DNA from: an uncultured Actinomycetes bacterium
Lineage (GTDB): Bacteria; Actinomycetota; Acidimicrobiia; IMCC26256; BP-133
DNA length: 64,000 nucleotides
Assembly (NCBI GenBank): GCA_963789165.1
Contig: CAWBJP010000003.1
Coordinates: forward strand, 518,625-582,624
Direction: 5' to 3'
Positions 12,330 to 26,396 of the stretch are shown in pieces. A program made the translations under genes and the position numbers. Positions within the stretch are counted from its first letter, which is position 1; each line of letters begins with the position of its first letter. The notes below the pieces were generated by a model, which saw only the letters and a program-made list of their open reading frames with translations, was not told the DNA's origin and did not search any database.

Positions 12330-12589
12330 CTGGACCCCCTCGTGGCTGGCTCGGGACGAATCCCGCCCCCGGTGTTCCACCTGGAGGAGCGGCGCACTGC
12401 GCCGACCTCGCGGCCTCTAAATCCATACTACTTTTTCGAAGTTCTAGGAAGTATCGTGCTTGTGACGTACGGAACGCCGGCTTCGACACACTCGATACGG
12501 CTTGCCCGTCAATGAAGTACCGCCTTGCAGGGGCGAGGGTGACCCGGGAGCATTGCGACAGCGTGGATCGCTGACCCTTGGAGCGTGTC

Positions 12590-13627
12590 ATGGGCGGCAT
12601 CTTCATCAACTACAGGCGTAACGACTCCGAGTACATCGCGGGCCGGCTCCGAAACGACCTCTCCCGGCGGTTCGGCACCGATTTCCTGATTTTCCGCGAC
12701 GTCGACTCCTTGGCGCTCGGACGCTTCGCGGAGGAGATCGACCAGGCGGTCCGGTCCTGCGACGTGATGGTCGTGGTGATCGGTGACGGTTGGCTCGATG
12801 CCCGCGATGCCTCGGGCAAAAAGCGCCTGGACCAGCCCGACGACTGGGTCCGGCAGGAGATCGCCGCCGGCCTTAGACAGAAGAAGATTCTGGTCCCGGT
12901 ACTGGTCGAGAACGCCCGCCTGCCTTCGGCCCACGAGCTACCGCTGGAGATAGCGGAGCTGGTCGACCAGCAGGCCGTGGAGCTTCCCGACTCCCGGTGG
13001 GATTACGAGGTGGAACAACTGGTCGGAAAGCTGGAGCGGTCGCTCCGGTCGAGAAACCTCTTGCCCTCGGATCAACAGCAGGAATTGCCGGCTCCACCCC
13101 TGCGGGATTCCACCAGGAGGTCTGGGCCCAAATGGGCCTTGGCAATCATCCCCGTCGTTCTTGCCGCCGGTGTGTTCGCCATAGTCCGCTCGAGCGGCTC
13201 CGGCTCGGAGTGCACACGCGACCGAACTCCGGCGCCAGGGCGGACGACTGTTGCCTCCCGTCAGACGGACCGGTCATATACCGGCCCATGGTCGGTGACC
13301 TGCGGTCCCCTCACGCTCACCATCGAGAAGATCGAAACCTCCGCCAGCGCCACCCGGGTTCATGCCCGGGTGGACAACGAGACGGACGACACCCTGATCC
13401 TTTCCGCCAGTCAGTTCAACATGGTCGATGACAACGGACACAGCTATCGAGCGAATCCGTTCTCGAGCGAATGGCCCAAAGACATTCCCCCCGGTGTGCT
13501 CCGCGGGATCGTCGATGTCGTGGAGCCGCTCCGGCCGGAGGCGACAAGTATCAGCGCGGGGTGGGGCACCGTGTTCGGGACCTTCGCGGTCGACCAGATC
13601 TTCGTCGAGGGCATCGGGCTGCGGTAG
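12590..13627 (+). CDS. Membrane-anchored TIR-domain protein with a C-terminal DUF4352-like beta-sandwich
   Basis: N-terminus MGGIFINYRRNDSEYIAGRL...VMVVVIGDGWL...DDWVRQEIAAGL (TIR_2-type motifs including the conserved Glu). TM helix WALAIIPVVLAAGVFAIV. C-terminal LTIEKIETSASATRVHARVDNETDDTLILSASQFNMVDDNGHSY. Confidence 0.85.
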   Translation: MGGIFINYRRNDSEYIAGRLRNDLSRRFGTDFLIFRDVDSLALGRFAEEIDQAVRSCDVMVVVIGDGWLDARDASGKKRLDQPDDWVRQEIAAGLRQKKILVPVLVENARLPSAHELPLEIAELVDQQAVELPDSRWDYEVEQLVGKLERSLRSRNLLPSDQQQELPAPPLRDSTRRSGPKWALAIIPVVLAAGVFAIVRSSGSGSECTRDRTPAPGRTTVASRQTDRSYTGPWSVTCGPLTLTIEKIETSASATRVHARVDNETDDTLILSASQFNMVDDNGHSYRANPFSSEWPKDIPPGVLRGIVDVVEPLRPEATSISAGWGTVFGTFAVDQIFVEGIGLR

Positions 13628-13636
13628 GCGACCGGA

Positions 13637-14173
13637 GTGATCATCGTGCATGCGGGCAATCGAATCGATCCGCCGGGAAGAGTCCCGCCCCGCTTTCCCG
13701 CCCATCGGGAACGGGCGGTCGGGGCCAGGATGGTGGAGCTACTCCAGATTCTCGAGCCCGCAGGCATTGTCAGCGCGGCGGCCGCCGGTGCCGACCTCCT
13801 GTTGGCCGAAGCGGCTCTGGATCGGGCGGTACCCCTCCACGTCGTCCTCCCCTGCCCTCGAGCCCGCTTCCAGGAGGTGTCGGTCGCGGATCAAGGCCCG
13901 CGTTGGGTTCTCGCCTTCGAGCGGGTCCTGAACCATGTCGCCCAAGACACCCGGTCCTCGTTGGAGGAGTTGACGCTCGAGCCGGACGACGCCGGCTTCC
14001 GCATGGCCAACCAGGTGCTGCTGGATCGGGCGGTCAACCTCGGCGCCGACCGGGTACTGGCCGTGGCCGTCCGCCCGAGACAGAGGGAGTCCACGCCGAG
14101 CGTGACCGATGACTTCGTCGACCGCGCCGAGGCGGCCGGATTCTTCGTACTGGAGATCGATCCCGGGCACTGA
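13637..14173 (+). CDS. SLOG/LOG-like Rossmannoid domain protein (tentative)
   Basis: HAGNRIDPPGRVPPRFP...IVSAAAAGADLLLAEAALDRAVPLHVVLPCPRARFQEVSV resembles the N-terminal module of DUF4071/TRAFs-binding-type proteins. The gene starts 10 nt after the TIR stop and ends 40 nt before the CHAT gene. The start could be GTG 13637 or GTG 13646. Confidence 0.5.
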   Translation: MIIVHAGNRIDPPGRVPPRFPAHRERAVGARMVELLQILEPAGIVSAAAAGADLLLAEAALDRAVPLHVVLPCPRARFQEVSVADQGPRWVLAFERVLNHVAQDTRSSLEELTLEPDDAGFRMANQVLLDRAVNLGADRVLAVAVRPRQRESTPSVTDDFVDRAEAAGFFVLEIDPGH

Positions 14174-14213: not shown

Positions 14214-17200
14214 ATGGCGGAGTCCGAGAGCGGGCCCGGCGTCCAAGGCATCTCACTGGCAGGCGAAGGCGTCCGATTCGCCGCGGATCGTGGAGTCGCC
14301 GCCGACACCCGGTCGGACGGCGTCACCGTTGATCCCGTGGCCGCCACCATCAACGCCACCGATGGCTTGCGTATCGCTGAGGCCATCACCATTCGAAACC
14401 TCGAGGTGACCGGGGGCGGCGGTCGAGGTGACGCGCGTGAGGGTGCGCTGGTTGTGGATGTCGGGCGGGCAGAGCCGGGTGAACGACCCGTTGTTCTCGT
14501 CGAAGAGGACGGCCGCTACACCTGGGTCGTTCCCGCCCCAGGCCAGGAACGTCTCCGGTTGCCGGTGGAAGCCGCTCCTGGAAGCCGGGGGCTGGCCGGC
14601 TGGGCTGTTCGCCGCGTGCTTCGCGTGGTGGCCGTGAAGACCGTGGGCTGGGCGGTGCACGAGGCGACGCGGACGATCGTCGGCGGCTGGGACGAACGGC
14701 GCCACCCGCACCGCCTCCGCGCCTGGACGCCCGAGAACCACCGCGACCCCAATGCCCCACCTCCCGACATGCAAGCTCTGGGGGCCGGACCAGCTCTGCT
14801 TGTCATCCACGGGTTCATGGGGTCCGTCCACGGGTCCTTCGGCGACCTGGCGGCTGACGTAGTGCGCGGGTTCCACCGGGCGTATCGCGGCCGCACATTC
14901 GCCTTCGACCACCCGACCCTGGCGGTCTCCCCAAGGAAGAACGCCAAGTGGCTCGCCCAGCAGCTCAGCAGCGAGGGCGTTCCCCTGGTCCTCGATGTCG
15001 TCGCCCACTCGCGGGGCGGGCTCGTCGCCCGCGAGCTGGCTCAGCGACTGAGCGGAGATGGCGTCACGGTGCAGTCGATCACGTTCGTAGCCACCCCGAA
15101 TGACGGCACCCCTCTGGCCGACCCGAAGCGACCCGAGGGGCTTCTCGACGCTCTCACCAACCTGGCTGGCGCAGTGCCGGGCAGCGATGCCCTCCAACTC
15201 GTCTTGGAACTCTTGAAAGACATCGTGGTGGGGTCAGCCTTCACCGGCCTCAAGGGGCTGGTGGCCATGGAGCCGGGCGGGGCCTACCTCAGCGAGCTCA
15301 ATGCTCTACCCGTCCCGGAGGGCTTGGAGCTCCGGGCCATCGCGGCTGACTTCGAACCCCGCAGCGACGCCGGGATCGTCCGGACCGCACACGACCGTTT
15401 GATCGACGCCTACTTCGGTGGGCTTCGCAATGACCTCATCGTTCCCACGCTGAGCACGATCGTGACGAGCGGCGCCTTCGGTGTCCGTGCCGGCCACCGC
15501 CTCGTCCTCGACAGCAGCCGCGGGGTGGACCACAGCTCGTTCTGGACCAACCCCAGGGCCGTAGGCCAGCTCGCCGATTGGCTGCGCCCGGACTGGCGTG
15601 AGCGTCCCCCGGACGAGGTACCTGACGAGGAGACGGACCCCGGAGCCGAGATGGCGCTGCCCCCCGATCCCCGGAGGATCGAAGACGTGGCGGATGCCGT
15701 CAGCCGCCTCCCCGACAGGTCCCGCAAGGCGGTGGAGGAACTTGTCGGAGGCCCGATCAATGAACGGGCCCGCAGACCCACAGGCGACCGTCCAGCCGTG
15801 GTCGTCATCCCGGGAATCATGGGGACGCATCTGCGCCGCCGAGCCGGTGAGCTCATCTGGATCGATCCGTTGCGCCTGATGCGCGGCCACTTCAGTGACT
15901 TGTCCTTGGCACCGCCAGGGGCCGAGGTGGAGCCTGCGGGATTGAACCGCACGTATCTCCCCCTCATCACCCATCTCGCCGAAACGCGGGATGTCTACCT
16001 GGCTCCGTTCGACTGGCGCCTCGACATCCGGGACTCGGCGAACAAGCTGGCGAACCTGATCCAGGACCAGGTTCTCGTAGCCAACCCCACCCGGTCGGTG
16101 CATCTCGTAGCCCATTCGATGGGTGGCCTGGTGGGCCGGTCACTCACCTTCGTAGCTCCGGGCGTGTGGTCCGAAATGGGTGCTGAGCAGCGCGGAGACA
16201 GTGGTCGGCTGGTGATGCTGGGGACACCGAACCGAGGATCGTTTTCCATCGTGCTGACCCTCACGGGCGCAGAGATGATCTTGAAAGCCCTCGCCGCAGT
16301 CGACTTCCGTGCCGACACCAGACGGCTGCTCGAGGTCGTGGCCACCTTCCCGGGCGTGTATCAGATGCTTCCCTCCCTCAGCGTCGGGCCGGGCGACGAC
16401 CGGCACCGCGACCTGTTTACCGCCACCAACTGGGGCAGTCGGTCACCGGTTCAGCAGGCCCTTCTTTCCGATGCGGTCGAGTTCCACGCCGCCCTGGAAG
16501 AAGCGCACCGGAACCTGAGCGATACGGACCTCGCCCGCATGACGTCCGTCGCCGGGTACGGCGTCGCCACCCCTTATCGGCTGGAGATCACCGAACCCGG
16601 GTCGTTCAGCGTCGGTCGGGTGCTGAGGGGCGACGGCCGCGTGGCGATGGCTCTCAATCACCTCGACGGCGTGACCCGCTACTACTGCAAGGCATCCCAT
16701 GGTGCGCTGCCGTCGGCACCGGATGTCCTGGCCTCGCTCGGGGAACTGCTGGCCGGGAACCCTGGCCAGTTGGAGCGTGAGGCGCCCGAATCCCGAGGCG
16801 CCGAGGCCATGGACCGGCCGCCGATGATCCCCGTCGAACTCTTCGACTCGGTACCCACCGGCGGGACACGCTCCGGCGTCGCCGTCGTAGGCCGGCGCCA
16901 GGCGGAGGCGCGCCTGGTCGAGGCTCTCAGACCCTCGTTGGGCGGAGGCCTCGCCCCTCCCGAACGGGTGCAGGTCAAGGTCCGCGTGGTCCATGCCAGC
17001 CTCGAACAGGCCGATTTCCCGGTCGCTGTCGGTCATTACACGGGGGTCCCGGTCGACGGGTCGGAAGGGTTTCTCGACCGCAAGCTGTTGGGTGCCCTGC
17101 GCCAACGGCAGTACCTCGGGCAATATCCCGAACGGGCAGGGACGGCCGTGTACATCCCGGCCCCGCCTGGCCACCAGCCCCGGGGGGCGCTGATATTGGG

Positions 17201-19709
17201 CCTCGGGGAGTTCGGCACGTTGACGGGCGCCAACCTCTCCGAGGCAATGACCCAGGCTGTCATCGCCCTGGTCCTCGACCAGCGTGAGCGCGACCCGGAT
17301 CCGAGCGCTTCTGTGAGCATCGGCGTCTCATCGGTGCTCGTCGGGACACCCGGGCGTCACGGTCTGACCATCGAGAACGCCGTCACTTCACTGGTTGAGG
17401 GCGTGATCGAAGCCGTGGTCCGCCTTCGACGCCAGGACGAGCCCATTCCCCTGCGAACGGTCGAGCTCGAATTGATCGAGAGCTATCAGCAACCCGCGGA
17501 AGAGGCGGCGATGCTGCTGGCCGACCTGGACAGGCTGCTGGAGCCCGGCCTGCGGGACCAGGTCGACCTGCTGACCGTCGACCGCTTGGTCGCACGCGAG
17601 GGCCACCAGCCCGGCGCGCCGCCGGGACGTGAGTCGGGCGAGGCCTGGATCCGTGTGCTGGTAGGGCTCGAACGCGATGAGCAGGCGGCGGGGACTTCCT
17701 CGATCCGTCGTATGACCTTCTCGACGCTCGCCCGCGGGGCCCAGGCCAACCTGATTTCACACGACGTCGACCTGGAGAAGATTCGGGCCTACGTCGACGC
17801 CGCCGTCCGACGCCCAGAACAGGATCCGGCCATCAACCGGACGCTGTTCGAACTGCTCTTTCCGCCCCGGGCCAAGCTGGACCTCGACCGGTCGGAGCAC
17901 CTCCACCTCATCGTGGACGACGAGACGGCCCAGCTGCCGTGGGAGCTCCTGGCGGCGGCAGCCGTCGGTCGCGATGTTGCGCCTCTCGCCCTGCGGGCGG
18001 GCATGCTGCGGCAACTTCAGAGCCCGTCGCTCACGCGCTACCGAACAGGCTCTCCCCGGGGCCTGACGGCTCTGTTCGTCGGAGATCCGCCCACCAGCTA
18101 CCCCCGCCTGCCCAACGCCAGAGAAGAGGCTGAACGCTTGGCGACACTGTTTGAAGGGCGACGCTGGGAGGTGGAACGCCGCATCTACGGGGACGACCAC
18201 ACCGGCGACGCCGACGAGTGGATGGACGTCCTGAACGCCCTCCACCAGCGGGACTACCGCGTGGTGCACATCGCGGCCCACGGCGTGTTCGATGAGGACT
18301 GGCGGCGCAGCGGCGTCGCCATCGGGCCCCTCCCCGAGCACCGCCTGACCGCCCTCGAGTTCGAGGCCATGAGCTCCACCCCTGACCTCGTCTTCCTGAA
18401 TTGCTGCCATCTCGGCCGCCTGGGTTGGTTGCTCGATCAGGCCAAGGAGCCCGACGCCCGGGCCCTCGAGCGGCCACACCGGGTCGCCGGCACGGTCGCC
18501 CAGCAACTCCTCCGCAACGGGGTCGGGGCGGTGGTGGTAGCGGGTTGGGCCGTCGACGACTTCGCCGCCGCCGCCTTTGCCTCTGAGCTCTACGAATCGA
18601 TGCTCGGCGGCTATCCCTTCGGCGAGGCGGTGCGCAAGGCCCGCATCGCCGCTCACAAAGCCGACGATGGCCGTTCAAACACGTGGGGGGCGTACCAGTG
18701 TTACGGCGACCCGGACTTCGAGATGTTGGCCCGGGACGTCCCGCCCACGACGCGGCCCGCACCCGTGAGCGCGGCGCAGCTGGCCCGAGACCTGCGACTG
18801 GCCGCCATCCGGGCCAGTGAAGCGACAACGGTCGAGCACACCAGGCAGGTGGCGAGAGAGGTCAACGGGCTGCGGGTGGCCGGGGGGGACCTGGTCAACG
18901 ACGGCCGGGTGCTGGAAGAGCTGGGTGACGCCTTCAGCGAGCTCGGTCACTATGAGCAGGCCGTGGAGGCCTATGAGCAGGCCCTGCGCGAGGAGAAGGG
19001 CGAGGTCCGGATCAGGACGGCCGAACAGCTCGCGAACCTGAAGGCCCGCCTCGCGGTCAACCTGGCCCGAAAGCCGGACGGGTCCGCGGATGCCCGCCGG
19101 CTTTTTGCCGAGGCCAGCTCGATGCTCGACCTTCTCGACCGTCTCGCCGGGAACACGGCCGAACGCCACGCCTTGCGAGGCAGCCTGGAGAAGAAGCGGG
19201 CCACCACCGTGGAAGGCGAGCAACGCGCCAAAGCCCTCATCACGGCCCGCGCCGCGTACCTGACGGCCCGTCAGCTCAGCTCGCCTGACCGCCACGCGTG
19301 GCTGGTCCCGTACCACACCAACCTCTGGCTGCAGCTCGTCATCCTGACCAGCGAATCCGCTGCCCTCGCGGAAGAAGAATCAGGCTGGCTGGATGCGCTC
19401 CACCACCAGGTCGCCGAGCAAGCGAGCACTCCGTCCAACTATTGGGAGCTGGCGGCACTGGCCGACACGCTGCTGACCTATCTCCTGGCCGACCGGCCCA
19501 CCACTCGAGGTTCGGTGTCCGCCGAAGAGGTGAAGACGAGCTATCTGAAGGCCTTCGAGCTTCGTTCCACCGTGCGCCAACGCGATTCTGCCCTCACCCA
19601 CCTTCACGATCTCAGCCTGCTCGTGCCGTTCGAGAGAGCGCAGCCGTACGTCACCCTGTTGGAAAGCCTGAGAAGGGTCTTCCCCGATGAGGAAGGTGCC
19701 GGGCGATGA
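14214..19709 (+). CDS. 1831-aa multi-effector protein: two alpha/beta-hydrolase (lipase/PGAP1/LCAT-like) modules + CHAT caspase-like protease + C-terminal helical-repeat (TPR/DUF4071-like) region
   Basis: ATG 14214 follows ggaaggggga. Hydrolase 1: LLVIHGFMGS...LDVVAHSRGGLVAREL. Hydrolase 2: VVVIPGIMGTHL...VHLVAHSMGGLVGRSL. CHAT dyad: YRVVHIAAHGVF ... DLVFLNCCHLG. C-terminus contains LGDAFSELGHYEQAVEAYEQALRE and further helices. Confidence 0.9.
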   Translation: MAESESGPGVQGISLAGEGVRFAADRGVAADTRSDGVTVDPVAATINATDGLRIAEAITIRNLEVTGGGGRGDAREGALVVDVGRAEPGERPVVLVEEDGRYTWVVPAPGQERLRLPVEAAPGSRGLAGWAVRRVLRVVAVKTVGWAVHEATRTIVGGWDERRHPHRLRAWTPENHRDPNAPPPDMQALGAGPALLVIHGFMGSVHGSFGDLAADVVRGFHRAYRGRTFAFDHPTLAVSPRKNAKWLAQQLSSEGVPLVLDVVAHSRGGLVARELAQRLSGDGVTVQSITFVATPNDGTPLADPKRPEGLLDALTNLAGAVPGSDALQLVLELLKDIVVGSAFTGLKGLVAMEPGGAYLSELNALPVPEGLELRAIAADFEPRSDAGIVRTAHDRLIDAYFGGLRNDLIVPTLSTIVTSGAFGVRAGHRLVLDSSRGVDHSSFWTNPRAVGQLADWLRPDWRERPPDEVPDEETDPGAEMALPPDPRRIEDVADAVSRLPDRSRKAVEELVGGPINERARRPTGDRPAVVVIPGIMGTHLRRRAGELIWIDPLRLMRGHFSDLSLAPPGAEVEPAGLNRTYLPLITHLAETRDVYLAPFDWRLDIRDSANKLANLIQDQVLVANPTRSVHLVAHSMGGLVGRSLTFVAPGVWSEMGAEQRGDSGRLVMLGTPNRGSFSIVLTLTGAEMILKALAAVDFRADTRRLLEVVATFPGVYQMLPSLSVGPGDDRHRDLFTATNWGSRSPVQQALLSDAVEFHAALEEAHRNLSDTDLARMTSVAGYGVATPYRLEITEPGSFSVGRVLRGDGRVAMALNHLDGVTRYYCKASHGALPSAPDVLASLGELLAGNPGQLEREAPESRGAEAMDRPPMIPVELFDSVPTGGTRSGVAVVGRRQAEARLVEALRPSLGGGLAPPERVQVKVRVVHASLEQADFPVAVGHYTGVPVDGSEGFLDRKLLGALRQRQYLGQYPERAGTAVYIPAPPGHQPRGALILGLGEFGTLTGANLSEAMTQAVIALVLDQRERDPDPSASVSIGVSSVLVGTPGRHGLTIENAVTSLVEGVIEAVVRLRRQDEPIPLRTVELELIESYQQPAEEAAMLLADLDRLLEPGLRDQVDLLTVDRLVAREGHQPGAPPGRESGEAWIRVLVGLERDEQAAGTSSIRRMTFSTLARGAQANLISHDVDLEKIRAYVDAAVRRPEQDPAINRTLFELLFPPRAKLDLDRSEHLHLIVDDETAQLPWELLAAAAVGRDVAPLALRAGMLRQLQSPSLTRYRTGSPRGLTALFVGDPPTSYPRLPNAREEAERLATLFEGRRWEVERRIYGDDHTGDADEWMDVLNALHQRDYRVVHIAAHGVFDEDWRRSGVAIGPLPEHRLTALEFEAMSSTPDLVFLNCCHLGRLGWLLDQAKEPDARALERPHRVAGTVAQQLLRNGVGAVVVAGWAVDDFAAAAFASELYESMLGGYPFGEAVRKARIAAHKADDGRSNTWGAYQCYGDPDFEMLARDVPPTTRPAPVSAAQLARDLRLAAIRASEATTVEHTRQVAREVNGLRVAGGDLVNDGRVLEELGDAFSELGHYEQAVEAYEQALREEKGEVRIRTAEQLANLKARLAVNLARKPDGSADARRLFAEASSMLDLLDRLAGNTAERHALRGSLEKKRATTVEGEQRAKALITARAAYLTARQLSSPDRHAWLVPYHTNLWLQLVILTSESAALAEEESGWLDALHHQVAEQASTPSNYWELAALADTLLTYLLADRPTTRGSVSAEEVKTSYLKAFELRSTVRQRDSALTHLHDLSLLVPFERAQPYVTLLESLRRVFPDEEGAGR

Positions 19710-20764
19710 CCATGCAGCTCTTCCTGAGCCACTCGACTCGTGACCGAACCATCGCCGAGGCGGTCAAGGTACTGGTTGAGGACCTGTTCGGGACGGACCG
19801 GGTTCAGGTGGAATTCTCTTCCGATCAGCAAGCTGGCGGCGGCATCCCGCCCGGCGCGCAGTGGCTCCCATGGATCACTGAGCGCATCACGCGAGCCGAC
19901 AAGACCTACGTGCTCATCACGCCGAACTCGACGAAGAAGCCCTGGGTCCTGTGGGAGTCGGGGGCGGCCGCCGGTGTCGCTCTGGCAACCCACAGATCGA
20001 GCCCCGTCGTCCCCATCACGTTCGGCATCGCAGACGCCGACATCCCGAGCCCTCTCCTGGCCAATCAGCGGGTGCGGGGTGACACCGATGAGGCCGACGG
20101 CATCACCCGGTTGCTCCAGGACCTCAACCTTGCCGTTGGTGCCCCACTGACCACCAAGGCCTTCGCTTCAACCATCGACGAGTGCCTCCCCGATTTCTTT
20201 GCCAAGATCAAGATGGCCCTCGGTCAATCCTCACCCGCAGAAAGCCTGCTCGCCTCGGTACCCCACAGCTTCTCCGCCGAAGCGCTGGGCGGCTTCTGGG
20301 TCACCTGCTACCAGTTCGCTTCGAGCCAGGGCCTGGGGTGCCATGCCGACATCGCGCAGCTCACCCCGGAATCGGATCGACGGGTGAGAGCCAGGAACTG
20401 CCCGCCTGAGCCCCGAACCGACGGTCACCGCACGCCGTTCCGGAACGAGATCGAGGCCGAGTTGGCCAACCGGCACCTCATCGGTTATTGGAAGAACGTC
20501 AGCGACACCCGGTACTTCGGGACAGTTCACCTCGCCGTCCTCCCTGGCGAGACCGTGATGGACGGCTACTACACCAGCTTCACAAGCGACGTCGAGGCCG
20601 GCACCGGGCACTGGAGGTGGGTCCTCCTCGACCCCGAGTCGCTTCCGGGTGTCGATCTCACCCGCATGGCGTTGCGGGAGCCAGCCGTGATCCACGAACT
20701 GCTTCTGGCGCACTCCAAGCACGCCGGGCCGATCAAGTTGGCCGATGTGGCGGAGGCCATCTAG
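19706..20764 (+). CDS. TIR-like domain protein with an uncharacterised ~180-aa C-terminal domain
   Basis: The ATG overlaps the CHAT stop (ATGA at 19706-19709). MQLFLSHSTRDRTIAEAVKVLVEDL...YVLITPNSTKKPWVLWESGAAAG (TIR-like beta-A motif and W..E glutamate). I do not recognise the C-terminal half. Confidence 0.7.
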   Translation: MTMQLFLSHSTRDRTIAEAVKVLVEDLFGTDRVQVEFSSDQQAGGGIPPGAQWLPWITERITRADKTYVLITPNSTKKPWVLWESGAAAGVALATHRSSPVVPITFGIADADIPSPLLANQRVRGDTDEADGITRLLQDLNLAVGAPLTTKAFASTIDECLPDFFAKIKMALGQSSPAESLLASVPHSFSAEALGGFWVTCYQFASSQGLGCHADIAQLTPESDRRVRARNCPPEPRTDGHRTPFRNEIEAELANRHLIGYWKNVSDTRYFGTVHLAVLPGETVMDGYYTSFTSDVEAGTGHWRWVLLDPESLPGVDLTRMALREPAVIHELLLAHSKHAGPIKLADVAEAI

Positions 20765-21154
20765 GTGGGAATCACCAGGCAGGAGGCCGGCGACGTCGTC
20801 AACCTCTACATCCAGGCGTGGGTCGGGCAGGATCCCGATCTGATCGTGACCATCTTCACCCCTTCGGCCACCTATCACGAGCGCGTGCTCGACACTCCGA
20901 TCCGAGAACGCGAAGGGATCCGGGCGTACTGGCAGGCGAAGGTCGTCGAGTCGCAACGCAACATCGAATGCGACCTGCTGAACCTGTATCTCGACGGGGC
21001 TACCGCCATTGTCGAATGGGAGGCCCGTTTCGACGACCTGGTTGCGAAGGAGCGGAAACGGATGCGAGAGGTGGCGATCCTCGTCTTCGAGGGCCAACTG
21101 ATCGCCAGCCTCCGCGAATACTGGTCCTCGGAGCGGATCGCCGACCTGTCCTAA
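20765..21154 (+). CDS. NTF2-like / SnoaL-like fold protein
   Basis: GTG start immediately after the TAG of the preceding gene. VVNLYIQAWVGQDPDLIVTIFTPSATYHE...IRAYWQ...YLDGATAIVEWEARF...VAILVFEGQLIASLREYW is typical of the SnoaL/NTF2 pattern. Confidence 0.7.
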   Translation: MGITRQEAGDVVNLYIQAWVGQDPDLIVTIFTPSATYHERVLDTPIREREGIRAYWQAKVVESQRNIECDLLNLYLDGATAIVEWEARFDDLVAKERKRMREVAILVFEGQLIASLREYWSSERIADLS

Positions 21155-21306
21155 CTCGTATACGCGAGCGGAACGACTTTCAAGTTTCCGTAGACATTAT
21201 GGCATTCTTCGCTAAAGTTAGGCGTAGTTGACGCTCTACCTCGAGCGGGCGCCGAGGGACGAAGGTGCGACGTGCATCCCCTCGTTCGAAAGCGAAGGGA
21301 GCAGCG

Positions 21307-22170
21307 ATGTCGCGCGGATGGTCAATCCATATCGGCCTCAACTCCGTCGATCCTGACAGTTACGAGGGTTGGGCGGGCCCGCTCTCGGCCTGCGAGTTCG
21401 ACGCTGGCGACATGGCCGTCCTTGCTGAAAGCCAGGGCTTTGAAACCAGGACGATCCTCACTCGCGAAGCCACCGCAATCAACGTCATCGGAGCACTCCA
21501 ACAGGCCGCGGCCGTACTTCAGGATGGCGACATTCTCTTCCTCTCCTACTCCGGGCATGGTGGCCAGGTCGACGACGCGAACGGCGACGAGAAGGACCTG
21601 CGGGATGAGACCTGGGTCCTCTATGACCGACAGCTTCTCGATGACGAGCTCTACGACCTGTGGAGCAGATTCCGTCCTGGTGTTCGGATCGTCGTCGTCT
21701 CCGACTCCTGCCACAGCGGGACGGTAGTGAGGGGGATTCCCGATTACCTCCAGGCCTCGGTCCTTCAGGCCCGCTACGGGGGGATGACGGTGGAGGATGT
21801 TGACCGAGGCACCAAGGCCATGCCCGAGAAGATCAGCAGGAGCGTCAACAACGCCCACCGCGACCTATACGACGGCATCCAGAGAGCCCTCAAGACGAGG
21901 GATGGGGCCGCAATAGGGGCCGGCGTGCTCCTCATCTCCGGATGCATGGACAACCAACTCTCAGCGGATGGGGAGCGCAACGGAAGGTTCACCGAAGAGC
22001 TTCTCCGGGTGTGGAACACCGGCAAGTTCGAAGGGTCGTACCGCTCCTTGCACAAGACAATCCTCATGGGCATGCCGCCAGACCAGTCCCCGAACCTTCT
22101 TCCCGTCGGTACTGCCAACCCGGAGTTCGAACAGCAACGACCCTTCAGTATCGAGCTCTTCCCACGGTGA
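21307..22170 (+). CDS. Caspase-family (peptidase C14, metacaspase-like) cysteine protease
   Basis: ATG 21307 follows gaaggga. His context ILFLSYSGHGGQV and Cys context IVVVSDSCHSGT. Confidence 0.9.
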   Translation: MSRGWSIHIGLNSVDPDSYEGWAGPLSACEFDAGDMAVLAESQGFETRTILTREATAINVIGALQQAAAVLQDGDILFLSYSGHGGQVDDANGDEKDLRDETWVLYDRQLLDDELYDLWSRFRPGVRIVVVSDSCHSGTVVRGIPDYLQASVLQARYGGMTVEDVDRGTKAMPEKISRSVNNAHRDLYDGIQRALKTRDGAAIGAGVLLISGCMDNQLSADGERNGRFTEELLRVWNTGKFEGSYRSLHKTILMGMPPDQSPNLLPVGTANPEFEQQRPFSIELFPR

Positions 22171-22709
22171 GCACCCCGACCATTCCAGAGGACGTCGAGC
22201 CGACCGAACGGATCGAGGTGTTCTTGTCCTACGCGCATGAGGACCAGGAGTTTCGCGGCCAGCTTGCCGCGCACCTCAGTCAATTAGAACAGAACGGCGA
22301 TATCAAAGCCTGGTCAGACCGTGAAATTGCGCCCGGTGCCAATTGGGATCGAGAAATTGACGTTCACGTGCTGACGGCGCACGTGATTCTTCCTCTGCTC
22401 AGCCGACACTTTATGGCGTCGCGTTATTGTTTCTCGGAAGAACTACGTATCGCAAAGAAGCGACACGAAGCCGAAGAAACTCGTCTAATTCCCATATTGA
22501 TTCGTCCAGTTGCCCTCGTCGGAGTGCTGATGCAGCTTCAGATGCTGCCCTCCTGTCCTGACGGAAGCGAACTACTCCCCGTGAGTGCATGGCCCGACGT
22601 CGACAACGCATGGACGCAGGTCACCGACCGAATAATCGAGGCGGTGGCCAGCGTGCGCAAGCAGCGGCAACAGAAATCTCCAAAGGTCTGGGGCAGCGGT
22701 TCGGGATAG
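22167..22709 (+). CDS. TIR-domain protein
   Basis: GTG 22167 overlaps the caspase stop (GTGA). IEVFLSYAHEDQEFRGQLAAHL...WSDREIAPGANWDREI...ILPLLSRHFMASRYCFSEELRIA (TIR_2 motifs including the conserved Glu). Confidence 0.85.
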   Translation: MSTPTIPEDVEPTERIEVFLSYAHEDQEFRGQLAAHLSQLEQNGDIKAWSDREIAPGANWDREIDVHVLTAHVILPLLSRHFMASRYCFSEELRIAKKRHEAEETRLIPILIRPVALVGVLMQLQMLPSCPDGSELLPVSAWPDVDNAWTQVTDRIIEAVASVRKQRQQKSPKVWGSGSG

Positions 22710-22716
22710 AGAGAGG

Positions 22717-23334
22717 TTGTTCGGCCGACAGGACCTTTTGGACGATCTTTGGTATCGCTACAAAGACCTGACTCAATCCAATATCCAAGTACTGGTCGGC
22801 TCTTCAGGGCTCGGTAAAAGCACCGTCGCTGCGCAGTACGCCTGGACACATCGTCCTGACTACGAAGTCGTGTGGTGGATCAACGCAAGCGACCCGACTC
22901 AACTCGAAGCCTCCTACGTTGCCCTCGCGGAAGCCCTGGGATCCGCGACACTGAGGGGCGATGCCGCCAAGGAGGTAGTGAAGGAACGACTCAAGGAAAC
23001 CGGAGCGCTTCTGATCTTCGACAACGCGCGGGACCCACGACACATTGAGTCGTTCCTCCCACACCAGCCTCGTAGCCATGTGCTCGTCACATCGCAGGGC
23101 GGTAATTGGCCGGAGCTTGGATACGTCACATCTTTTCAGGCCCTTACTCAGGCCGAGGTCGAGCACGTCCTGCGTGAGGCTGCAGATATGGACGACCAGG
23201 ATCTAGTCCCCGAGCTCGCCCGCCACCTTCAAGGCGACCCGTTGGCGGTAAAGACCGCTGTCGCCCGGCTGCGGTCCGGGGAGAGCGCATGGTCCTACCT
23301 TCGCAAGCTTCAGCAATGGGCAAAAGGGCAGTGA
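22717..23334 (+). CDS. NB-ARC-type STAND P-loop NTPase module (no sensor or winged-helix part in this frame)
   Basis: TTG 22717 follows gagagagg, 7 nt after the TIR stop. FGRQDLLDDL...VLVGSSGLGKSTVAAQYA (Walker A), ALLIFDNARD (Walker B), HVLVTSQ, GDPLAVKTAVARL. Confidence 0.85.
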   Translation: MFGRQDLLDDLWYRYKDLTQSNIQVLVGSSGLGKSTVAAQYAWTHRPDYEVVWWINASDPTQLEASYVALAEALGSATLRGDAAKEVVKERLKETGALLIFDNARDPRHIESFLPHQPRSHVLVTSQGGNWPELGYVTSFQALTQAEVEHVLREAADMDDQDLVPELARHLQGDPLAVKTAVARLRSGESAWSYLRKLQQWAKGQ

Positions 23335-26300
23335 CTTCTAGCGCCGGCGGCGTGACCGGTGGTTCGGTAACAACGGCAGCCGAGCTCGCTCTCGACGAGA
23401 TGAGCACCGATTCTGCCGAAGTCATGGAGTTGCTAAGCCTTCTCGCCTTCTTCGCCCCGGACAGCGACATCCCCGGGCTCGTCCTCCTTGACGGTGCCAC
23501 CGCGCTCGAAGCAGATGCATGCAAACCAATTTCCTCTCCGCTCGCTCTCAACGACGCGATGTCCACTCTCGTCGCATGGGGGCTGGCAGAAGTTGACGGT
23601 GTCAGCCTGGTCATCCATGAGCGGATCCAGATCGCCGTGCGGGCGCGCCTCGGCTCCGATCAACAGCGCCGAACCGCGGAAGCCGCGGGTCTCGTCATAG
23701 CGTCGACCTATCCAGACCATCCCGATGCCATTCGGAACTGGCCCAAGGCCGGGTTGCTGCTCTCGCATGCTCTCGGGCTCATCGATCACCTTGAACGGCT
23801 TCGAAGTAAATCGGAAGTCCTTCCCCGGTTGCTCGACCGAGTCGGCCTCCATTTTATGGGCCTCGGACGACTGCAGGATGCCCTCCGGCTTCTCGAGCAG
23901 GCACAAGCAACTGTGTTCCTGGTCCACGGCGCTGGAAGCGACCTCGATGCTTGCGTCCAGCGCCACCTGGGCACGGTCCTTCGGGAGGCGGGCCGGCTCA
24001 GAGAATCAGAGTTGTTACTCCAAAGAGCGCTGGCGAAGGACACAGATCGAGACGGGGCTGATTCTCCGTCCGTAGCATTGGACCTCCGAGAGCTGGGCCA
24101 GACACTGGCCCGCCACAAGGGCTATCTCGAAGCACGAAAGCATCTGGCCAAAGCGCTTCAGATCCACGAGACTTTCGAGCCCGACGGGTTCGAGGTCGCC
24201 GCCGATCTTGATGCGCTATTTGAGGTGTTCGCCCTCCGAGGCGACATCGCCGAAGCGCGCAGCGTTCTCGAACGGGCTTTGTCCATCCGCGAGAAGCTCT
24301 TCGGTCATGACGACGTCGACACAATCATGACTCGCGTTGCCTTGGAGGTATTTCGTGGACTCTTGGTCGAGGGTTGGTCGAACACCTCTGCCATCGAACG
24401 GTACGTAGCGCAATCGGAACAGACGTTCGGCCTATCTCACCCTCGAGTCGCGGAGGTCTACGAACTGGTGTCGGATGCGGCTGCGAACCGGCAGGATTGG
24501 GAAGCTGCGCAGACGTATCTCGAACGGTCTCTAGAGGTCAACAAGTCCGCATACGGTCGTACGCATCCGCGCATCATCAGCAACCTATTCCGGCTCTTCA
24601 GAACAGCCTTGGCTCTGGGGCAAATTCAACGGGCCGGGGCGTTAACTGAGGAAGCGATCGGCATCCTGAAAGAGGTGCGGCCAGAGGATCTTGAAGCGAC
24701 GATCGCCCAAGCTGACGTCGCCACCGCTCTTTCGCCGTTGTCAGAGCTGGACCCTTCGGCCCGTCCGGCAGCCCGTACCGGCCTGGAACGATCGCTTGAG
24801 ATGCTTCGGCATGAACTGCCCGCCGCGCGCACGACAGAGATCGATCTCCTAGAGGTGCTGGCCCAGCTGGCGGTCGACCAGGGTGAACGCAATCTGGAAA
24901 AGGATCTCTTGAGCGAGGCTCTGGAAATCGTCCGCTCGACAGATATGTCAGAGCTGGAGGAGGCTCGCCTGCTGAGCAAGATGGCCGCGGGCGAGGAATC
25001 GCCTGCCAAGGCACTCCTCTTATGGACACGGGTTCTCGAGGTGGAGCGTCGCGAGCTCGGCCCCGATCACTATCGCCTCTTTACCACGTACTCATCCTTG
25101 TGGCCTCTGCTCCTAACGCTGAACCGGGTGCACGAGGCCCGAAGCGCCCTCGAGGAGGGCATCCGGATCGCTGGAAAAACATTCGGGCCCGACCATTGGC
25201 TGCTCGAGCAGATGCACGAGGCGCAGTCAGTCCTCAGCGCCTACGGCGGCGACATGGCCTCTGCGGTGGACGCGAGGCGCAAGGCCTTGGCTGCGGCAGA
25301 GAGCAATCCCAATTCTGATCAGGCGACCCTGGTGGTGCGGTTGATGCAGCTGGCCGAGACGCTCCAAGTCATCGGTGGATGGGAAGAGGCGCTAGAGCTC
25401 CTCCATCGGGGCCTGGAGATCCAAAAGGATGCGAAGCTCGACGAAGGACTTCGAGGGACCCTGCATCTCCGGCTAGCCGATTCGCTCATCCACGAAGGCG
25501 ACTACTCAGCAGCCCTGGCCAGCCTCAAAGAAGCTGCTCGGGTCGTAGAGATTGGGGAGGCCCGCCAAGACGCGGTGGAAGAAGCTGGCGCCTTGAGTCC
25601 CGGTCGCGAACAGATCGTCGAGGGATGGTCCAATCTCGGGGACGCCCTGCTCGCCAGTGGCCAGCCCTCGCTGGCGATCGAGCGTTACCAACTCGGGTTG
25701 CAAGCGGCGGCCCTGACTGAGACGCCTCTCGATGATGCGCAACTTCATGTCCGGCTTGCAGTCTTGGCCGGTATTCATCAGCAGGACGACTCGGCGAAGA
25801 ATCATCTGGAAAGAGCGCTTAAATTCATTCAAGCGGCTCAAATGCCCGGACCTCTGTGGGGCCTTTTGATCTCTTGCTCACGGGTCATGGCTCTCACGGA
25901 GCCACCCCAGGCAATTTTGCGACTCATACGAGAACTGGTCAGGTCTAGCTCGGGAGCGATGATGGACTTTCGTGGCAAACTCACGGGGGGCGTGCCTGAT
26001 GGATGGTTTGCGAAGGAGTCCCTCACTTTCGTTGCACCAGACGGCCAGGCGAACGTGATCGCTTCGAGTGAGCCACTCGACGAAACGATCAGGTCTGAGG
26101 AGTATGCGCAAATTCAAGGCGATCTTCTGCAAAGCGAATTTCCGGAGTATGCCGAACTCTCTTTTGAACCCGCTCACGTCTTTGGCCGAGCCGGATTCGT
26201 CCGCTATTTCCGTTGGACTCCTCCAGATGGCGTCTCAGTAACCCAGATCCAGTTCTACCACGCCGATACTGGACGAGGCTTTACTGCCACAGCGACTACA

Positions 26301-26396
26301 CCGACGATTAACTTTGATTCGGTTGGCGGTCTACTTCGCCTCGTGCTGGATGCACTCGTCATCGGCGATGACGCCGCCGCCGTGAACGTCTCGTGA
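23289..26396 (+). CDS. Continuation of the STAND NTPase: winged-helix segment + long TPR array + C-terminal DUF1795/DcrB-like domain
   Basis: This frame overlaps the NB-ARC ORF by 46 nt. MELLSLLAFFAPDSDIPGLVLL is a typical NB-ARC WH segment. Many TPR_10/12-like repeats follow (LGTVLREAGRLRESELLLQRALA ...). The tail reads GVPDGWFAKESLTFVAPDGQANVIASSEPLDETIRSEEYAQIQGDLLQSEFPEYAEL. The true N-terminus probably lies in the previous ORF. Confidence 0.85.
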   Translation: MVLPSQASAMGKRAVTSSAGGVTGGSVTTAAELALDEMSTDSAEVMELLSLLAFFAPDSDIPGLVLLDGATALEADACKPISSPLALNDAMSTLVAWGLAEVDGVSLVIHERIQIAVRARLGSDQQRRTAEAAGLVIASTYPDHPDAIRNWPKAGLLLSHALGLIDHLERLRSKSEVLPRLLDRVGLHFMGLGRLQDALRLLEQAQATVFLVHGAGSDLDACVQRHLGTVLREAGRLRESELLLQRALAKDTDRDGADSPSVALDLRELGQTLARHKGYLEARKHLAKALQIHETFEPDGFEVAADLDALFEVFALRGDIAEARSVLERALSIREKLFGHDDVDTIMTRVALEVFRGLLVEGWSNTSAIERYVAQSEQTFGLSHPRVAEVYELVSDAAANRQDWEAAQTYLERSLEVNKSAYGRTHPRIISNLFRLFRTALALGQIQRAGALTEEAIGILKEVRPEDLEATIAQADVATALSPLSELDPSARPAARTGLERSLEMLRHELPAARTTEIDLLEVLAQLAVDQGERNLEKDLLSEALEIVRSTDMSELEEARLLSKMAAGEESPAKALLLWTRVLEVERRELGPDHYRLFTTYSSLWPLLLTLNRVHEARSALEEGIRIAGKTFGPDHWLLEQMHEAQSVLSAYGGDMASAVDARRKALAAAESNPNSDQATLVVRLMQLAETLQVIGGWEEALELLHRGLEIQKDAKLDEGLRGTLHLRLADSLIHEGDYSAALASLKEAARVVEIGEARQDAVEEAGALSPGREQIVEGWSNLGDALLASGQPSLAIERYQLGLQAAALTETPLDDAQLHVRLAVLAGIHQQDDSAKNHLERALKFIQAAQMPGPLWGLLISCSRVMALTEPPQAILRLIRELVRSSSGAMMDFRGKLTGGVPDGWFAKESLTFVAPDGQANVIASSEPLDETIRSEEYAQIQGDLLQSEFPEYAELSFEPAHVFGRAGFVRYFRWTPPDGVSVTQIQFYHADTGRGFTATATTPTINFDSVGGLLRLVLDALVIGDDAAAVNVS

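What the first reader, a model, noticed from the sequence alone, without database searches (positions are those of the whole stretch)
13637..14173. Stand-alone SLOG-like protein wedged between a TIR gene and the CHAT effector: possible nucleotide-signal receptor
**Seen:** A 178-aa ORF starts 10 nt after the TIR stop. It contains HAGNRIDPPGR..PRFP, then a glycine-rich AAAGADLL stretch, then LHVVLP. That is a Rossmann-like beta-alpha pattern.

**Established:** SLOG/LOG-superfamily domains bind nucleotide derivatives, and in Thoeris ThsA they receive the TIR-generated signal.

**Inference:** This protein may couple TIR output to activation of the downstream effector. The assignment rests only on my recall of similar N-terminal modules in DUF4071-type proteins, so it is tentative.
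Basis: inference. Interest (0 to 1): 0.65.

Follow-up and report, generated by a model that had tools for sequence, protein, structure and literature searches.

The report
Stand-alone SLOG protein in TIR–CHAT operon
A small, unannotated gene between a TIR gene and a giant lipase–protease gene encodes a nucleotide-binding (SLOG-fold) protein that recurs beside TIR, "TPR-S" and cell-killing effector genes in many bacteria, so it is most likely a ligand-binding or regulatory part of a Thoeris-like immune system.

Summary
The ORF at 13637-14173 (+) is real, and the quoted motifs are there. It has 77 close homologues, and its profile finds about 3,900 representative clusters. It matches no Pfam, NCBIfam or PADLOC model. 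AlphaFold gives pLDDT 96.5. Foldseek puts it in the SLOG superfamily: YpsA 2nx2 is the best match (E 6e-7, TM 0.64), followed by DprA, ShosA and a LOG protein.

About 650-aa relatives carry this domain in front of a DNPH1-like hydrolase and a TPR-S/DUF4071 domain. That is the type VIII Thoeris effector layout with an extra N-terminal SLOG.

In 25 loci with long flanks, 23 have TIR, TPR-S, CHAT/caspase, SLATT or a patatin/alpha-beta hydrolase within 5 kb. TPR-S (16 of 25) is a steadier neighbour than TIR (12 of 25).

The best reading is a ligand-binding subunit that works with the TPR-S-bearing CHAT/lipase effector. The ligand is probably NAD-derived. Its role as receptor is inferred, not shown. 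A role as a nucleotide-processing enzyme or a signal brake remains a serious rival. I rate it a new variant of a known kind, of moderate to high interest.

The parts
12578..13627 (+). TIR protein (349 aa). It has an N-terminal TIR domain, then a hydrophobic stretch (WALAIIPVVLAAGVFAIV) that looks like a single membrane helix, then a C-terminal beta-rich domain with a weak DUF5643 match. It is the first gene of the operon.
   Evidence: Pfam TIR_2 E 9.7e-12, residues 8-148; DUF5643 E 7.5e-4. PADLOC TIR models give weak hits.
13637..14173 (+). The finding: a stand-alone SLOG-superfamily protein (178 aa, GTG start) of the YpsA/DprA/YAcAr-like clade. Invariant residues are G7, R9, D11, R19, G51, D53 and L54.
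13649..13699 (+). Loop after strand 1: HAGNRIDPPGRVPPRFP (residues 5-21). It carries H5, G7, N8, R9, D11, R15, R19, F20 and P21, and is the predicted phosphate/ligand-binding loop.
   Evidence: Conservation in 65 sequences and in the fusion proteins.
13778..13801 (+). AAAGADLL (residues 48-55): the G-x-D motif at the end of strand 2. [quoted passage not shown]
   Evidence: G51, D53 and L54 are invariant. The strand 2 to helix 2 junction is. YpsA G53/E55 are described in PMC6459960.
14214..19709 (+). Effector protein (1831 aa from the ATG at 14214). It has two alpha/beta-hydrolase (DUF7379, LCAT/PGAP1-like) domains, a conserved middle domain, a CHAT caspase-like protease and a C-terminal TPR-S.
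   Evidence: Pfam DUF7379 5.8e-51, CHAT 1.3e-32, TPR-S 2e-7, PGAP1 and LCAT. The middle, CHAT and TPR-S segments are conserved next to SLOG homologues in other loci.
19706..20764 (+). Second TIR protein (352 aa). Its start overlaps the stop of the CHAT gene by 4 nt.
   Evidence: Pfam TIR_2 1.1e-9. PADLOC TIR-TM and ThsB models hit at 1e-8 to 1e-5. The overlap is seen.
20765..21154 (+). SnoaL-like protein (129 aa) that starts directly after the TIR2 stop. It is probably in the same transcript. Its membership in the system is uncertain, because it was not seen in related loci.
   Evidence: Pfam SnoaL_2 1.5e-12. No homologue was found in other loci. No terminator-like site lies between the genes.

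Best explanation
The gene encodes a stand-alone SLOG-fold nucleotide-binding protein from an unmodelled family close to YpsA, DprA and YAcAr. It is co-transcribed in the order TIR, SLOG, (2x lipase-like hydrolase)-CHAT-TPR-S, TIR.

Proposed mechanism:
1. On infection or stress, a TIR protein converts NAD+ into an ADP-ribose-type signal.
2. The SLOG protein binds a nucleotide of this kind in the pocket formed by the strand-1 loop (R9, D11, R15, R19), the G51-x-D53 motif, S82/D85/W90 and N125.
3. The SLOG protein acts as a separate subunit of the TPR-S-bearing effector and tunes (switches on or restrains) its CHAT protease and lipase domains.

What is shown: the fold, the conserved pocket residues, the operon layout, and the recurrent linkage and fusion with TPR-S effectors, TIR, patatin and SLATT.

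What is inferred: the ligand, the physical contact with TPR-S, and the direction of control.
For: **Fold**
- AF2 model with pLDDT 96.5.
- Foldseek PDB: YpsA 2nx2 (E 6.4e-7, TM 0.64), DprA, ShosA, LOG protein 1rcu.
- BFVD: phage DprA-like and YspA/cpYpsA-related SLOG proteins, TM up to 0.69.
- Weak Pfam hits to YAcAr (11 of 65 members) and DprA (4 of 65).
- The G-x-D motif sits where the YpsA clade has its predicted nucleotide site.

**Operon**
- Gaps of 9, 40, -4 and 0 nt, with no promoter-like or terminator-like site between the genes.

**Conserved linkage**
- L062 (79% identity): SLOG, then DUF7379-CHAT-TPR-S, then Patatin-TIR.
- L001 (60%): TIR-WD40, SLOG, TIR-like, DUF7379-CHAT-TPR-S.
- L013, L014, L017 (about 45%): CHAT-TPR-S-MBL plus Patatin, divergent from SLOG, which is convergent with TIR.
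- L053: abhydrolase-TPR-S, SLOG, TIR.
- L018, L019: TPR-S-trypsin plus a lipase-like hydrolase plus SLOG.
- L036: TIR, SLATT_3, SLATT_1, SLOG-x-TPR-S.
- L064: TIR, x, SLOG, x, TPR-S.
- Census: 23 of 25 long-flank loci carry at least one such partner within 5 kb (TPR-S 16, TIR 12). The flagged neighbour classes were checked against Pfam in bulk, as family counts over 96 flagged neighbour ORFs.

**Fusions (Rosetta stone)**
- SLOG + DNPH1-like + TPR-S in one chain, with a TIR gene alongside.
- Patatin-SLOG, where a CBASS-like lipase is the obvious effector.
- The pocket residues are kept in all fusions.

**Precedent**
- The SLOG domain of type I Thoeris ThsA receives 3'cADPR (stated in 10.64898/2025.12.03.692087).
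Against: - No binding, activity or interaction was tested.
- TIR is detected near only about half of the loci, and is absent from ±10 kb in L007, L018 and L019 and from ±6 kb around a Patatin-SLOG gene.
- TPR-S is itself the predicted or presumed receptor of TIR signals. Type VIII Thoeris as described (TIR plus a CMP hydrolase-TPR effector) lists no SLOG domain, and two plasmid TPR-S loci here have no SLOG match. A second receptor is therefore not obviously needed.
- ThsA's SLOG is not among the top 50 structural matches, and no ThsA model hits the protein.
- The large number of invariant polar residues would also suit an enzyme.
Confidence: 0.45

Rival explanations
1. The SLOG protein is an enzyme acting on a nucleotide, not a receptor. 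It could make or mature the signal that TPR-S or SLATT effectors sense, standing in for or following TIR. Or it could hydrolyse or sequester the signal as a host-encoded brake that sets an activation threshold, as stand-alone CARF ring nucleases do in type III CRISPR.
For: - SLOG + SLATT (L007) and SLOG + TPR-S-trypsin (L018, L019) occur with no detectable TIR. In those loci SLOG occupies the place TIR has in type VII and VIII Thoeris.
- TPR-S is already the presumed sensor.
- Many polar residues are invariant or nearly so: H5, N8, R9, D11, R15, R19, D53, S82, D85, N125, D158.
- LOG members of the superfamily are N-glycosidases (established knowledge), and a LOG protein (1rcu) is among the structural matches.
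- In the Ilumatobacteraceae loci the gene is monocistronic, divergent from the effector operon, as a separately controlled regulator might be.
Against: - The LOG catalytic signature PGGxGTxxE is absent, and no LOG (Lysine_decarbox) Pfam hit appears even at E<=10.
- The nearest structural relatives (YpsA, DprA) are binding proteins with no known catalysis.
- In Patatin-SLOG and in TIR + SLOG-DNPH1-TPR-S, the domain sits in the effector chain rather than with the generator.
Confidence: 0.3
2. It is a DprA/ShosA-like nucleic-acid-binding protein that senses invader single-stranded DNA, or guards DNA, and only happens to share a neighbourhood with TIR systems.
For: DprA and the DprA-like Shosta protein ShosA are among the best structural matches. 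Phage DprA-like proteins top the BFVD list. Four of 65 members give weak DNA_processg_A hits.
Against: - The protein is a single Rossmannoid domain of 178 aa, with no room for any further domain.
- The conserved residues cluster at the C-terminal edge of the sheet, in a small-ligand-type crevice.
- The partners (TIR, TPR-S, SLATT, patatin) are those of nucleotide-signal systems.
Confidence: 0.07
3. It is a housekeeping or metabolic SLOG protein whose position here is an accident of island insertion.
For: Some homologues sit in ordinary-looking contexts. P0069 lies next to proline dehydrogenase and glycosyltransferase genes. L009, L010 and L063 lie next to MDMPI_N, M20 peptidase, PhoH and YbeY genes.
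Against: - Even L010 and L063 carry CHAT/TPR-S genes or remnants 1-4 kb upstream.
- 23 of 25 long-flank loci have conflict-system partners.
- Domain fusions tie the family to TPR-S and patatin.
- The 9-nt and 40-nt gaps place it inside the operon.
Confidence: 0.05

Closest known systems
YpsA (B. subtilis, PDB 2nx2) and the YpsA/YAcAr/DprA clade of the SLOG superfamily
   Same: It is the best structural match (E 6.4e-7, TM 0.64). Both are single-domain proteins of about 180 aa. Both have a G-x-D/E motif after strand 2, the predicted nucleotide site. There are weak Pfam YAcAr hits.
   Different: Identity is only 16%. The YpsA Pfam model does not hit. The genomic context is different (YpsA pairs with gpsB and acts on cell division). 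The long conserved HAGNRxD...RFP loop is specific to this family.
ThsA SLOG domain of type I Thoeris (receptor of 3'cADPR)
   Same: It is a SLOG-superfamily domain in a TIR-containing immune operon, and it provides the logic of a TIR-made ADPR derivative read by a SLOG domain.
   Different: Here the domain is stand-alone rather than fused to SIR2. No PADLOC ThsA model hits. ThsA is not among the top 50 structural matches. The ligand is unknown.
Type VIII Thoeris (TIR + ThsI = 'CMP hydrolase' + TPR; cADPR signal), preprint 10.64898/2025.12.03.692087
   Same: It combines TIR with a TPR-S-bearing effector. About 650-aa relatives of this protein are SLOG + DNPH1-like hydrolase + TPR-S, with a TIR gene alongside. 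Co-occurrence with SLATT genes, as reported for ThsH + ThsI operons, is seen in L036.
   Different: In the window TPR-S is fused to CHAT and two lipase-like domains, not to a DNPH1-like hydrolase. The type VIII effector is described only as CMP hydrolase plus TPR, and two plasmid TPR-S loci here have no SLOG match. Sequence identity to the published ThsI proteins could not be checked because no sequences were held.
Type IV Thoeris (TIR + caspase-like ThsE; N7-cADPR), 10.1101/2024.10.24.620036
   Same: It pairs TIR with a caspase-fold protease as effector.
   Different: It is a two-gene system whose protease has its own C-terminal putative sensor domain. It has no SLOG, no TPR-S and no lipase domains. 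The window's protease is a CHAT domain inside an 1831-aa multi-enzyme protein.
TPR-S conflict systems predicted by Burroughs & Aravind 2020 (J Bacteriol 202:e00365-20; not held here, recalled from memory and from the citation)
   Same: The TPR scaffold is predicted to recognise NAD-derived signals, is linked to TIR, and is fused to variable effectors.
   Different: I could not read the paper, so I cannot say whether this particular SLOG family was already noted there as a partner.

Membership tests
SLOG superfamily | Rossmannoid alpha/beta fold shared with Smf/DprA, LOG and YpsA | tested here: met
   The AF2 model (pLDDT 96.5) matches YpsA, DprA, ShosA and LOG protein 1rcu with probability 1.00. 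It also matches phage DprA-like and YAcAr proteins. No TIR or nucleoside deoxyribosyltransferase fold is in the top 50.
YpsA clade of SLOG | G-x-D/E motif after strand 2 (predicted nucleotide-binding site) | tested here: met
   G51 and D53 are invariant in 65 sequences, at the strand 2 to helix 2 junction. The YpsA G53/E55 motif is described in PMC6459960.
YpsA family (Pfam PF06908) / YAcAr (PF10686) / DprA (PF02481) | Match to the family HMM above its threshold | tested here: not met
   The window protein has no Pfam hit at E<=0.1. Among 65 members at E<=10 there are only sub-threshold hits: YAcAr 11 members (best 0.0024), DprA 4 members (best 0.015), YpsA none.
LOG (cytokinin-riboside phosphoribohydrolase) family | PGGxGTxxE catalytic motif and a Lysine_decarbox HMM match | tested here: not met
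   The motif is absent from the alignment. No PF03641 hit appears among the 65 members.
Type I Thoeris ThsA | SLOG fused to a SIR2 or TM effector; match to ThsA models | tested here: not met
   It is a stand-alone 178-aa protein with no PADLOC hit at E<=0.1.
Type III Thoeris SLOG effector | Match to curated type III Thoeris models; several TIR genes plus a SLOG effector | tested here: inconclusive
   The SLOG protein has no NCBIfam hit at E<=0.1. The TIR gives only a weak, far sub-threshold ThcB4 hit (27.6 bits against a cut-off of 220). Several TIR genes are present. I do not know whether the library holds a model of the type III SLOG effector.
Type VIII Thoeris-like (TIR + TPR-S effector) | TIR gene adjacent to a TPR-S-bearing effector | tested here: met
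   TIR_2 genes lie at 12578-13627 and 19706-20764. TPR-S lies at residues 1580-1693 of the CHAT protein.
Type VIII Thoeris-like (TIR + TPR-S effector) | DNPH1/'CMP hydrolase'-like effector domain fused to the TPR | tested here: not met
   The window's TPR-S protein carries DUF7379, LCAT, PGAP1 and CHAT domains instead. The DNPH1-like domain is found only in the ~650-aa SLOG fusions elsewhere.
Any SLOG signal receptor | Binds an ADPR-derived or other nucleotide ligand | not testable with these tools
   This needs ITC, DSF or a co-crystal structure. Only the conservation of pocket residues could be shown.

The most novel reading that the evidence does not exclude
SLOG and TPR-S together form a split, two-part receptor. 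The small SLOG subunit captures a TIR-made (or infection-induced) nucleotide and docks on the TPR-S arm of whichever effector is present: CHAT, trypsin, lipase or DNPH1-like hydrolase. In some lineages the two parts are fused into one chain. Alternatively, the free SLOG also destroys or buffers the signal. That would make it the first host-encoded off-switch of TIR signalling, analogous to CRISPR ring nucleases.
Probability: 0.25. Interest if true: 0.75.

Novelty: new variant of a known kind. Interest (0 to 1): 0.6.

Why it matters
TIR-based (Thoeris-like) immunity is being charted quickly. The known types are two-gene systems in which the effector carries its own sensor. This locus differs in three ways:
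- It is a recurrent three-part design (TIR, free SLOG, TPR-S effector).
- Its effector combines a caspase-like protease with two lipase-like domains.
- Its SLOG family is large (about 3,900 clusters at 50% identity) but has no model in Pfam, NCBIfam or PADLOC, and was even mis-called in its own genome.

Working out whether the free SLOG is a receptor subunit, a signal-maturing enzyme or a brake would clarify what TPR-S actually senses. It would also clarify how such systems avoid self-activation. The TPR-S scaffold is shared with the animal ASK1 kinase region, which adds wider interest.

Tried and rejected
- **Family libraries.** Direct searches of the protein against Pfam, NCBIfam and PADLOC gave nothing at E<=0.1.
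- **PDB by sequence.** Sequence and profile searches gave only chance-level hits, E>=0.09. Only the fold comparison worked.
- **First attempt at the family scans.** Searches failed because I gave a wrong frame for the CHAT gene. The correct ATG is at 14214.
- **Genome-collection scan.** Most metagenome contigs were under 3 kb. The census therefore rests on 25 long-flank loci.
- **Neighbour detection.** It used jackhmmer seeded from locus proteins, and TPR hits can drift. I checked the classes in bulk against Pfam, as family counts, and checked key loci gene by gene.
- **Literature.** Burroughs & Aravind 2020, which defines the TPR scaffold, is not held. The type VIII Thoeris preprint gives no effector sequences, so identity with ThsI is argued from architecture only.
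- **TM-effector fusions.** I rejected the idea that this family is fused to transmembrane effectors. The 300-360-aa forms are SLOG + DNPH1-like fragments or gene-call artefacts.
- **SLOG-SLATT fusions (L052-L059).** They match only the G-A-D-L region and are a more distant SLOG group.
- **A second structure job.** I did not run one on a fusion protein, because the tool reports no inter-domain contacts.

Full report
**1. The observation**

- It begins 9 nt after the TAG of a 349-aa TIR gene (12578-13627).
- It ends 40 nt before the ATG (14214) of an 1831-aa gene.
- The quoted strings HAGNRIDPPGR, PRFP, AAAGADLL and LHVVLP are all present.
- Third-position GC is 0.81, the same as in the flanking genes.
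- No promoter-like or terminator-like site separates TIR1, this ORF, the large gene, TIR2 and a SnoaL-like gene. The gaps are 9, 40, -4 and 0 nt, so the five genes look like one transcript.
- The public gene call for this protein starts at Met32 (P0002, 147 aa) and so loses the best-conserved motif. Full-length homologues support the longer form.

**2. What the protein is**

No Pfam, NCBIfam or PADLOC model matches it at E<=0.1. PDB sequence searches give only noise.

It nevertheless belongs to a well-defined family:
- 77 homologues of about 175-190 aa at 35-85% identity.
- A profile of 65 of them finds 3,944 representative clusters at E<=0.001 and 2,322 at E<=1e-10.
- Invariant residues are G7, R9, D11, R19, G51, D53 and L54.
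- H5, N8, R15, F20, P21, R31, S82, D85, G87, W90, N125, D158 and F160 are at least 90% conserved.

AlphaFold2 on this alignment gives pLDDT 96.5 and pTM 0.92, with six beta-alpha units. By topology, all the conserved residues fall in loops at the C-terminal ends of the strands. That is the usual ligand crevice of Rossmann-like folds.

Foldseek results:
- Against the PDB, YpsA (2nx2) ranks first (E 6.4e-7, TM 0.64). DprA, the DprA-like Shosta protein ShosA and the LOG-family protein TM1055 follow.
- Against viral models, phage DprA-like and 'YspA cpYpsA-related SLOG' proteins lead, with TM up to 0.69.
- TIR and deoxyribosyltransferase folds are not among the top matches.

At the sequence level:
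- 11 of 65 members give weak YAcAr hits and 4 give weak DprA hits.
- The G51-x-D53 motif sits where the YpsA clade has its GxD/E motif, the predicted nucleotide site (PMC6459960).
- The LOG catalytic motif PGGxGTxxE is absent.

The protein is therefore a SLOG-superfamily domain of the YpsA/DprA/YAcAr kind, from a family that has no curated model.

**3. Its company**

In the window the neighbours are as follows:
- A TIR protein with an apparent membrane helix and a beta-rich C-terminal domain.
- The large protein, with two alpha/beta-hydrolase domains (DUF7379, LCAT/PGAP1-like), a conserved middle region, CHAT and TPR-S.
- A second TIR.
- A SnoaL-like protein.

A caspase C14 gene and a TIR / NB-ARC / TPR set follow.

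Related loci repeat the theme with shuffled gene order:

| Locus | Identity to the window protein | Arrangement |
|---|---|---|
| L062 | 79% | SLOG, DUF7379-CHAT-TPR-S, Patatin-TIR |
| L001 | 60% | TIR-WD40, SLOG, weak TIR-like, DUF7379-CHAT-TPR-S |
| L013, L014, L017 (Ilumatobacteraceae MAGs) | about 45% | CHAT-TPR-S-MBL and Patatin, divergent from SLOG, which is convergent with TIR-DUF2510 |
| L053 | 35% | abhydrolase-TPR-S, SLOG, TIR |
| L018, L019 | 42-43% | lipase-like hydrolase, TPR-S-trypsin, SLOG; no TIR found |
| L064 | 56% | TIR, x, SLOG, x, TPR-S |
| L003, L021 | 57%, 52% | caspase divergent from SLOG |
| L007 | 57% | SLATT_1 + SLATT_3 divergent from SLOG; no TIR |
| L036 | 44% | TIR, SLATT_3, SLATT_1, SLOG-x-TPR-S |

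The census covered 25 non-redundant loci with at least 8 kb of flank. Partners within 5 kb were:
- TPR-S: 16 loci
- Patatin or alpha/beta hydrolase: 14
- TIR: 12
- CHAT or caspase: 10
- SLATT: 4
- At least one of these: 23

A bulk Pfam scan of 96 flagged neighbour ORFs gave family counts that confirm the classes: TIR_2 31, Patatin 19, TPR-S 17, SLATT/DUF4231 14 hits over three related models, Trypsin_2 4, caspase 2. Two lineages (P0069; L009) show no such partner.

The pattern is a constant pair (SLOG and TPR-S), a frequent third partner (TIR), and a variable effector fused to TPR-S.

**4. Fusions**

About one in eight of the best 150 representatives is 580-660 aa long, with this domain at the N-terminus.
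- Pfam finds TPR-S and MAP3K_TRAF_bd (the former DUF4071) at their C-termini.
- A profile of 18 such proteins also matches human and rat DNPH1/Rcl over positions 210-284 (E 5e-5), with the Y-E-L-G catalytic glutamate kept.
- These proteins are thus SLOG + DNPH1-like hydrolase + TPR-S. One of them (P0175) has a convergent TIR gene 21 nt away.
- This is the 'CMP hydrolase and TPR' effector layout of type VIII Thoeris (validated; signal is canonical cADPR; preprint 10.64898/2025.12.03.692087), plus an extra N-terminal SLOG.
- In proteobacterial plasmids the best matches cover only the post-SLOG part of P0175 (residues about 170-580), and the two loci inspected have a roughly 400-aa TPR-S protein next to small TIR genes and no SLOG match.
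- Another fusion, P0203, is a CBASS-like patatin lipase followed by this SLOG, with no TIR within 6 kb.
- The pocket residues are conserved in every architecture.

**5. How it most likely works**

*Shown:* a SLOG fold with a conserved crevice; co-transcription with TIR and a TPR-S effector; recurrent linkage and fusion with TPR-S, patatin and SLATT.

*Inferred:* the protein binds a nucleotide, probably an NAD-derived product of the TIRs, and acts on the effector through its TPR-S region. In some lineages the two modules are one chain and here they are two. Three points favour a ligand-binding role:
- The precedent of ThsA.
- The Patatin-SLOG and TIR + SLOG-DNPH1-TPR-S architectures, in which the domain sits in the effector chain.
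- The non-enzymatic nature of its nearest structural relatives.

I put this at about 0.45.

*Main rival (about 0.3):* it is an enzyme or buffer acting on the signal. Three points support this:
- TPR-S is itself the presumed sensor, and type VIII as described works with no SLOG listed.
- TIR-less SLOG + SLATT and SLOG + TPR-S-trypsin loci put SLOG in the place TIR occupies elsewhere.
- The many invariant polar residues would suit catalysis.

A DprA-like DNA-binding role and a chance neighbourhood are unlikely.

**6. Comparison and novelty**

The system works like a Thoeris system. It is closest in parts to type VIII (TPR-S), type IV (caspase-fold effector) and type I (SLOG receptor), but it is a member of none:
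- No ThsA model hits.
- There is no DNPH1-like domain in the window.
- The protease is a CHAT domain inside a multi-enzyme protein.

The free SLOG family has no model in Pfam, NCBIfam or PADLOC. I could not read Burroughs & Aravind 2020, which may already mention SLOG partners of the TPR scaffold. I therefore rate it a new variant of a known kind rather than something categorically new.

**7. Verdict**

The fold assignment and the DUF4071 recollection are correct. The receptor role is plausible but untested, and a regulatory or enzymatic role is a live alternative. Interest 0.6.

Noticed in passing
window 13637-13729 (residues 1-31 of the ORF): The public gene call for this protein (P0002, 147 aa, on an 833-kb contig) starts at the internal Met32. 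It omits the family's most conserved motif (HAGNRxD...RFP). About 60 homologues begin at the longer start.
   Followed up: yes
window 12578-13627: The upstream TIR protein has a hydrophobic stretch (WALAIIPVVLAAGVFAIV, about residues 186-203) and then a beta-rich C-terminal domain with a weak DUF5643 hit. This suggests a TIR tethered to the membrane with an extracytoplasmic sensor domain.
   Followed up: partly
window 21265-26396: A second conflict module follows: a caspase C14 gene, then TIR (21942-22709), a P-loop/NB-ARC piece (22717-23334, in a different frame) and a 1035-aa TPR protein (23289-26396, overlapping by 46 nt). The frame changes suggest a frameshifted TIR-NB-ARC-TPR gene, or sequencing errors.
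   Followed up: partly
P0175, P0083, P0100; L036:9932-11956; L024:1-2127: About 650-aa proteins combine this SLOG domain, a DNPH1/Rcl-like hydrolase domain with the catalytic YELG glutamate kept, and TPR-S/DUF4071. This is an N-terminally extended form of the type VIII Thoeris effector layout. P0175 has a TIR gene 21 nt away.
   Followed up: yes
L052-L059 (e.g. L057:1851-3434): Proteins of 440-530 aa match only the V-A-A-G-A-D-L region of the family and also match SLATT profiles, usually with a patatin gene next door. They appear to be a more distant SLOG-SLATT fusion group.
   Followed up: partly
L013:1127-5101(-), L014, L017: In Ilumatobacteraceae MAGs the partner protease is CHAT-TPR-S with a C-terminal metallo-beta-lactamase domain resembling Avs1a (NCBIfam E 1.6e-41). 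A separate patatin gene replaces the fused alpha/beta-hydrolase domains of the window's protein.
   Followed up: partly
window 16914-17813 (residues ~900-1200 of the CHAT protein): A region of about 300 aa in front of the CHAT domain has no Pfam model. It is conserved in all CHAT-TPR-S partners of the SLOG family (E down to 1e-25 in distant loci), so it looks like an undescribed constant domain of these proteases.
   Followed up: no
L062:1308-1559: In the closest relative's locus, a short ORF just upstream of the SLOG gene still matches TIR profiles. It may be a decayed remnant of the upstream TIR gene seen in the window.
   Followed up: no
L060 (E. coli IncP plasmid NZ_CP147111.1) and L061 (Acinetobacter pittii plasmid): Conjugative and mobilisable plasmids of Enterobacterales and Acinetobacter carry a 'TRAFs-binding domain-containing protein' of about 400 aa next to two or three small TIR genes, and in L060 also a DUF4231 (SLATT-like) gene. 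The layout fits TIR/TPR-S (type VIII-like) Thoeris systems on plasmids.
   Followed up: partly
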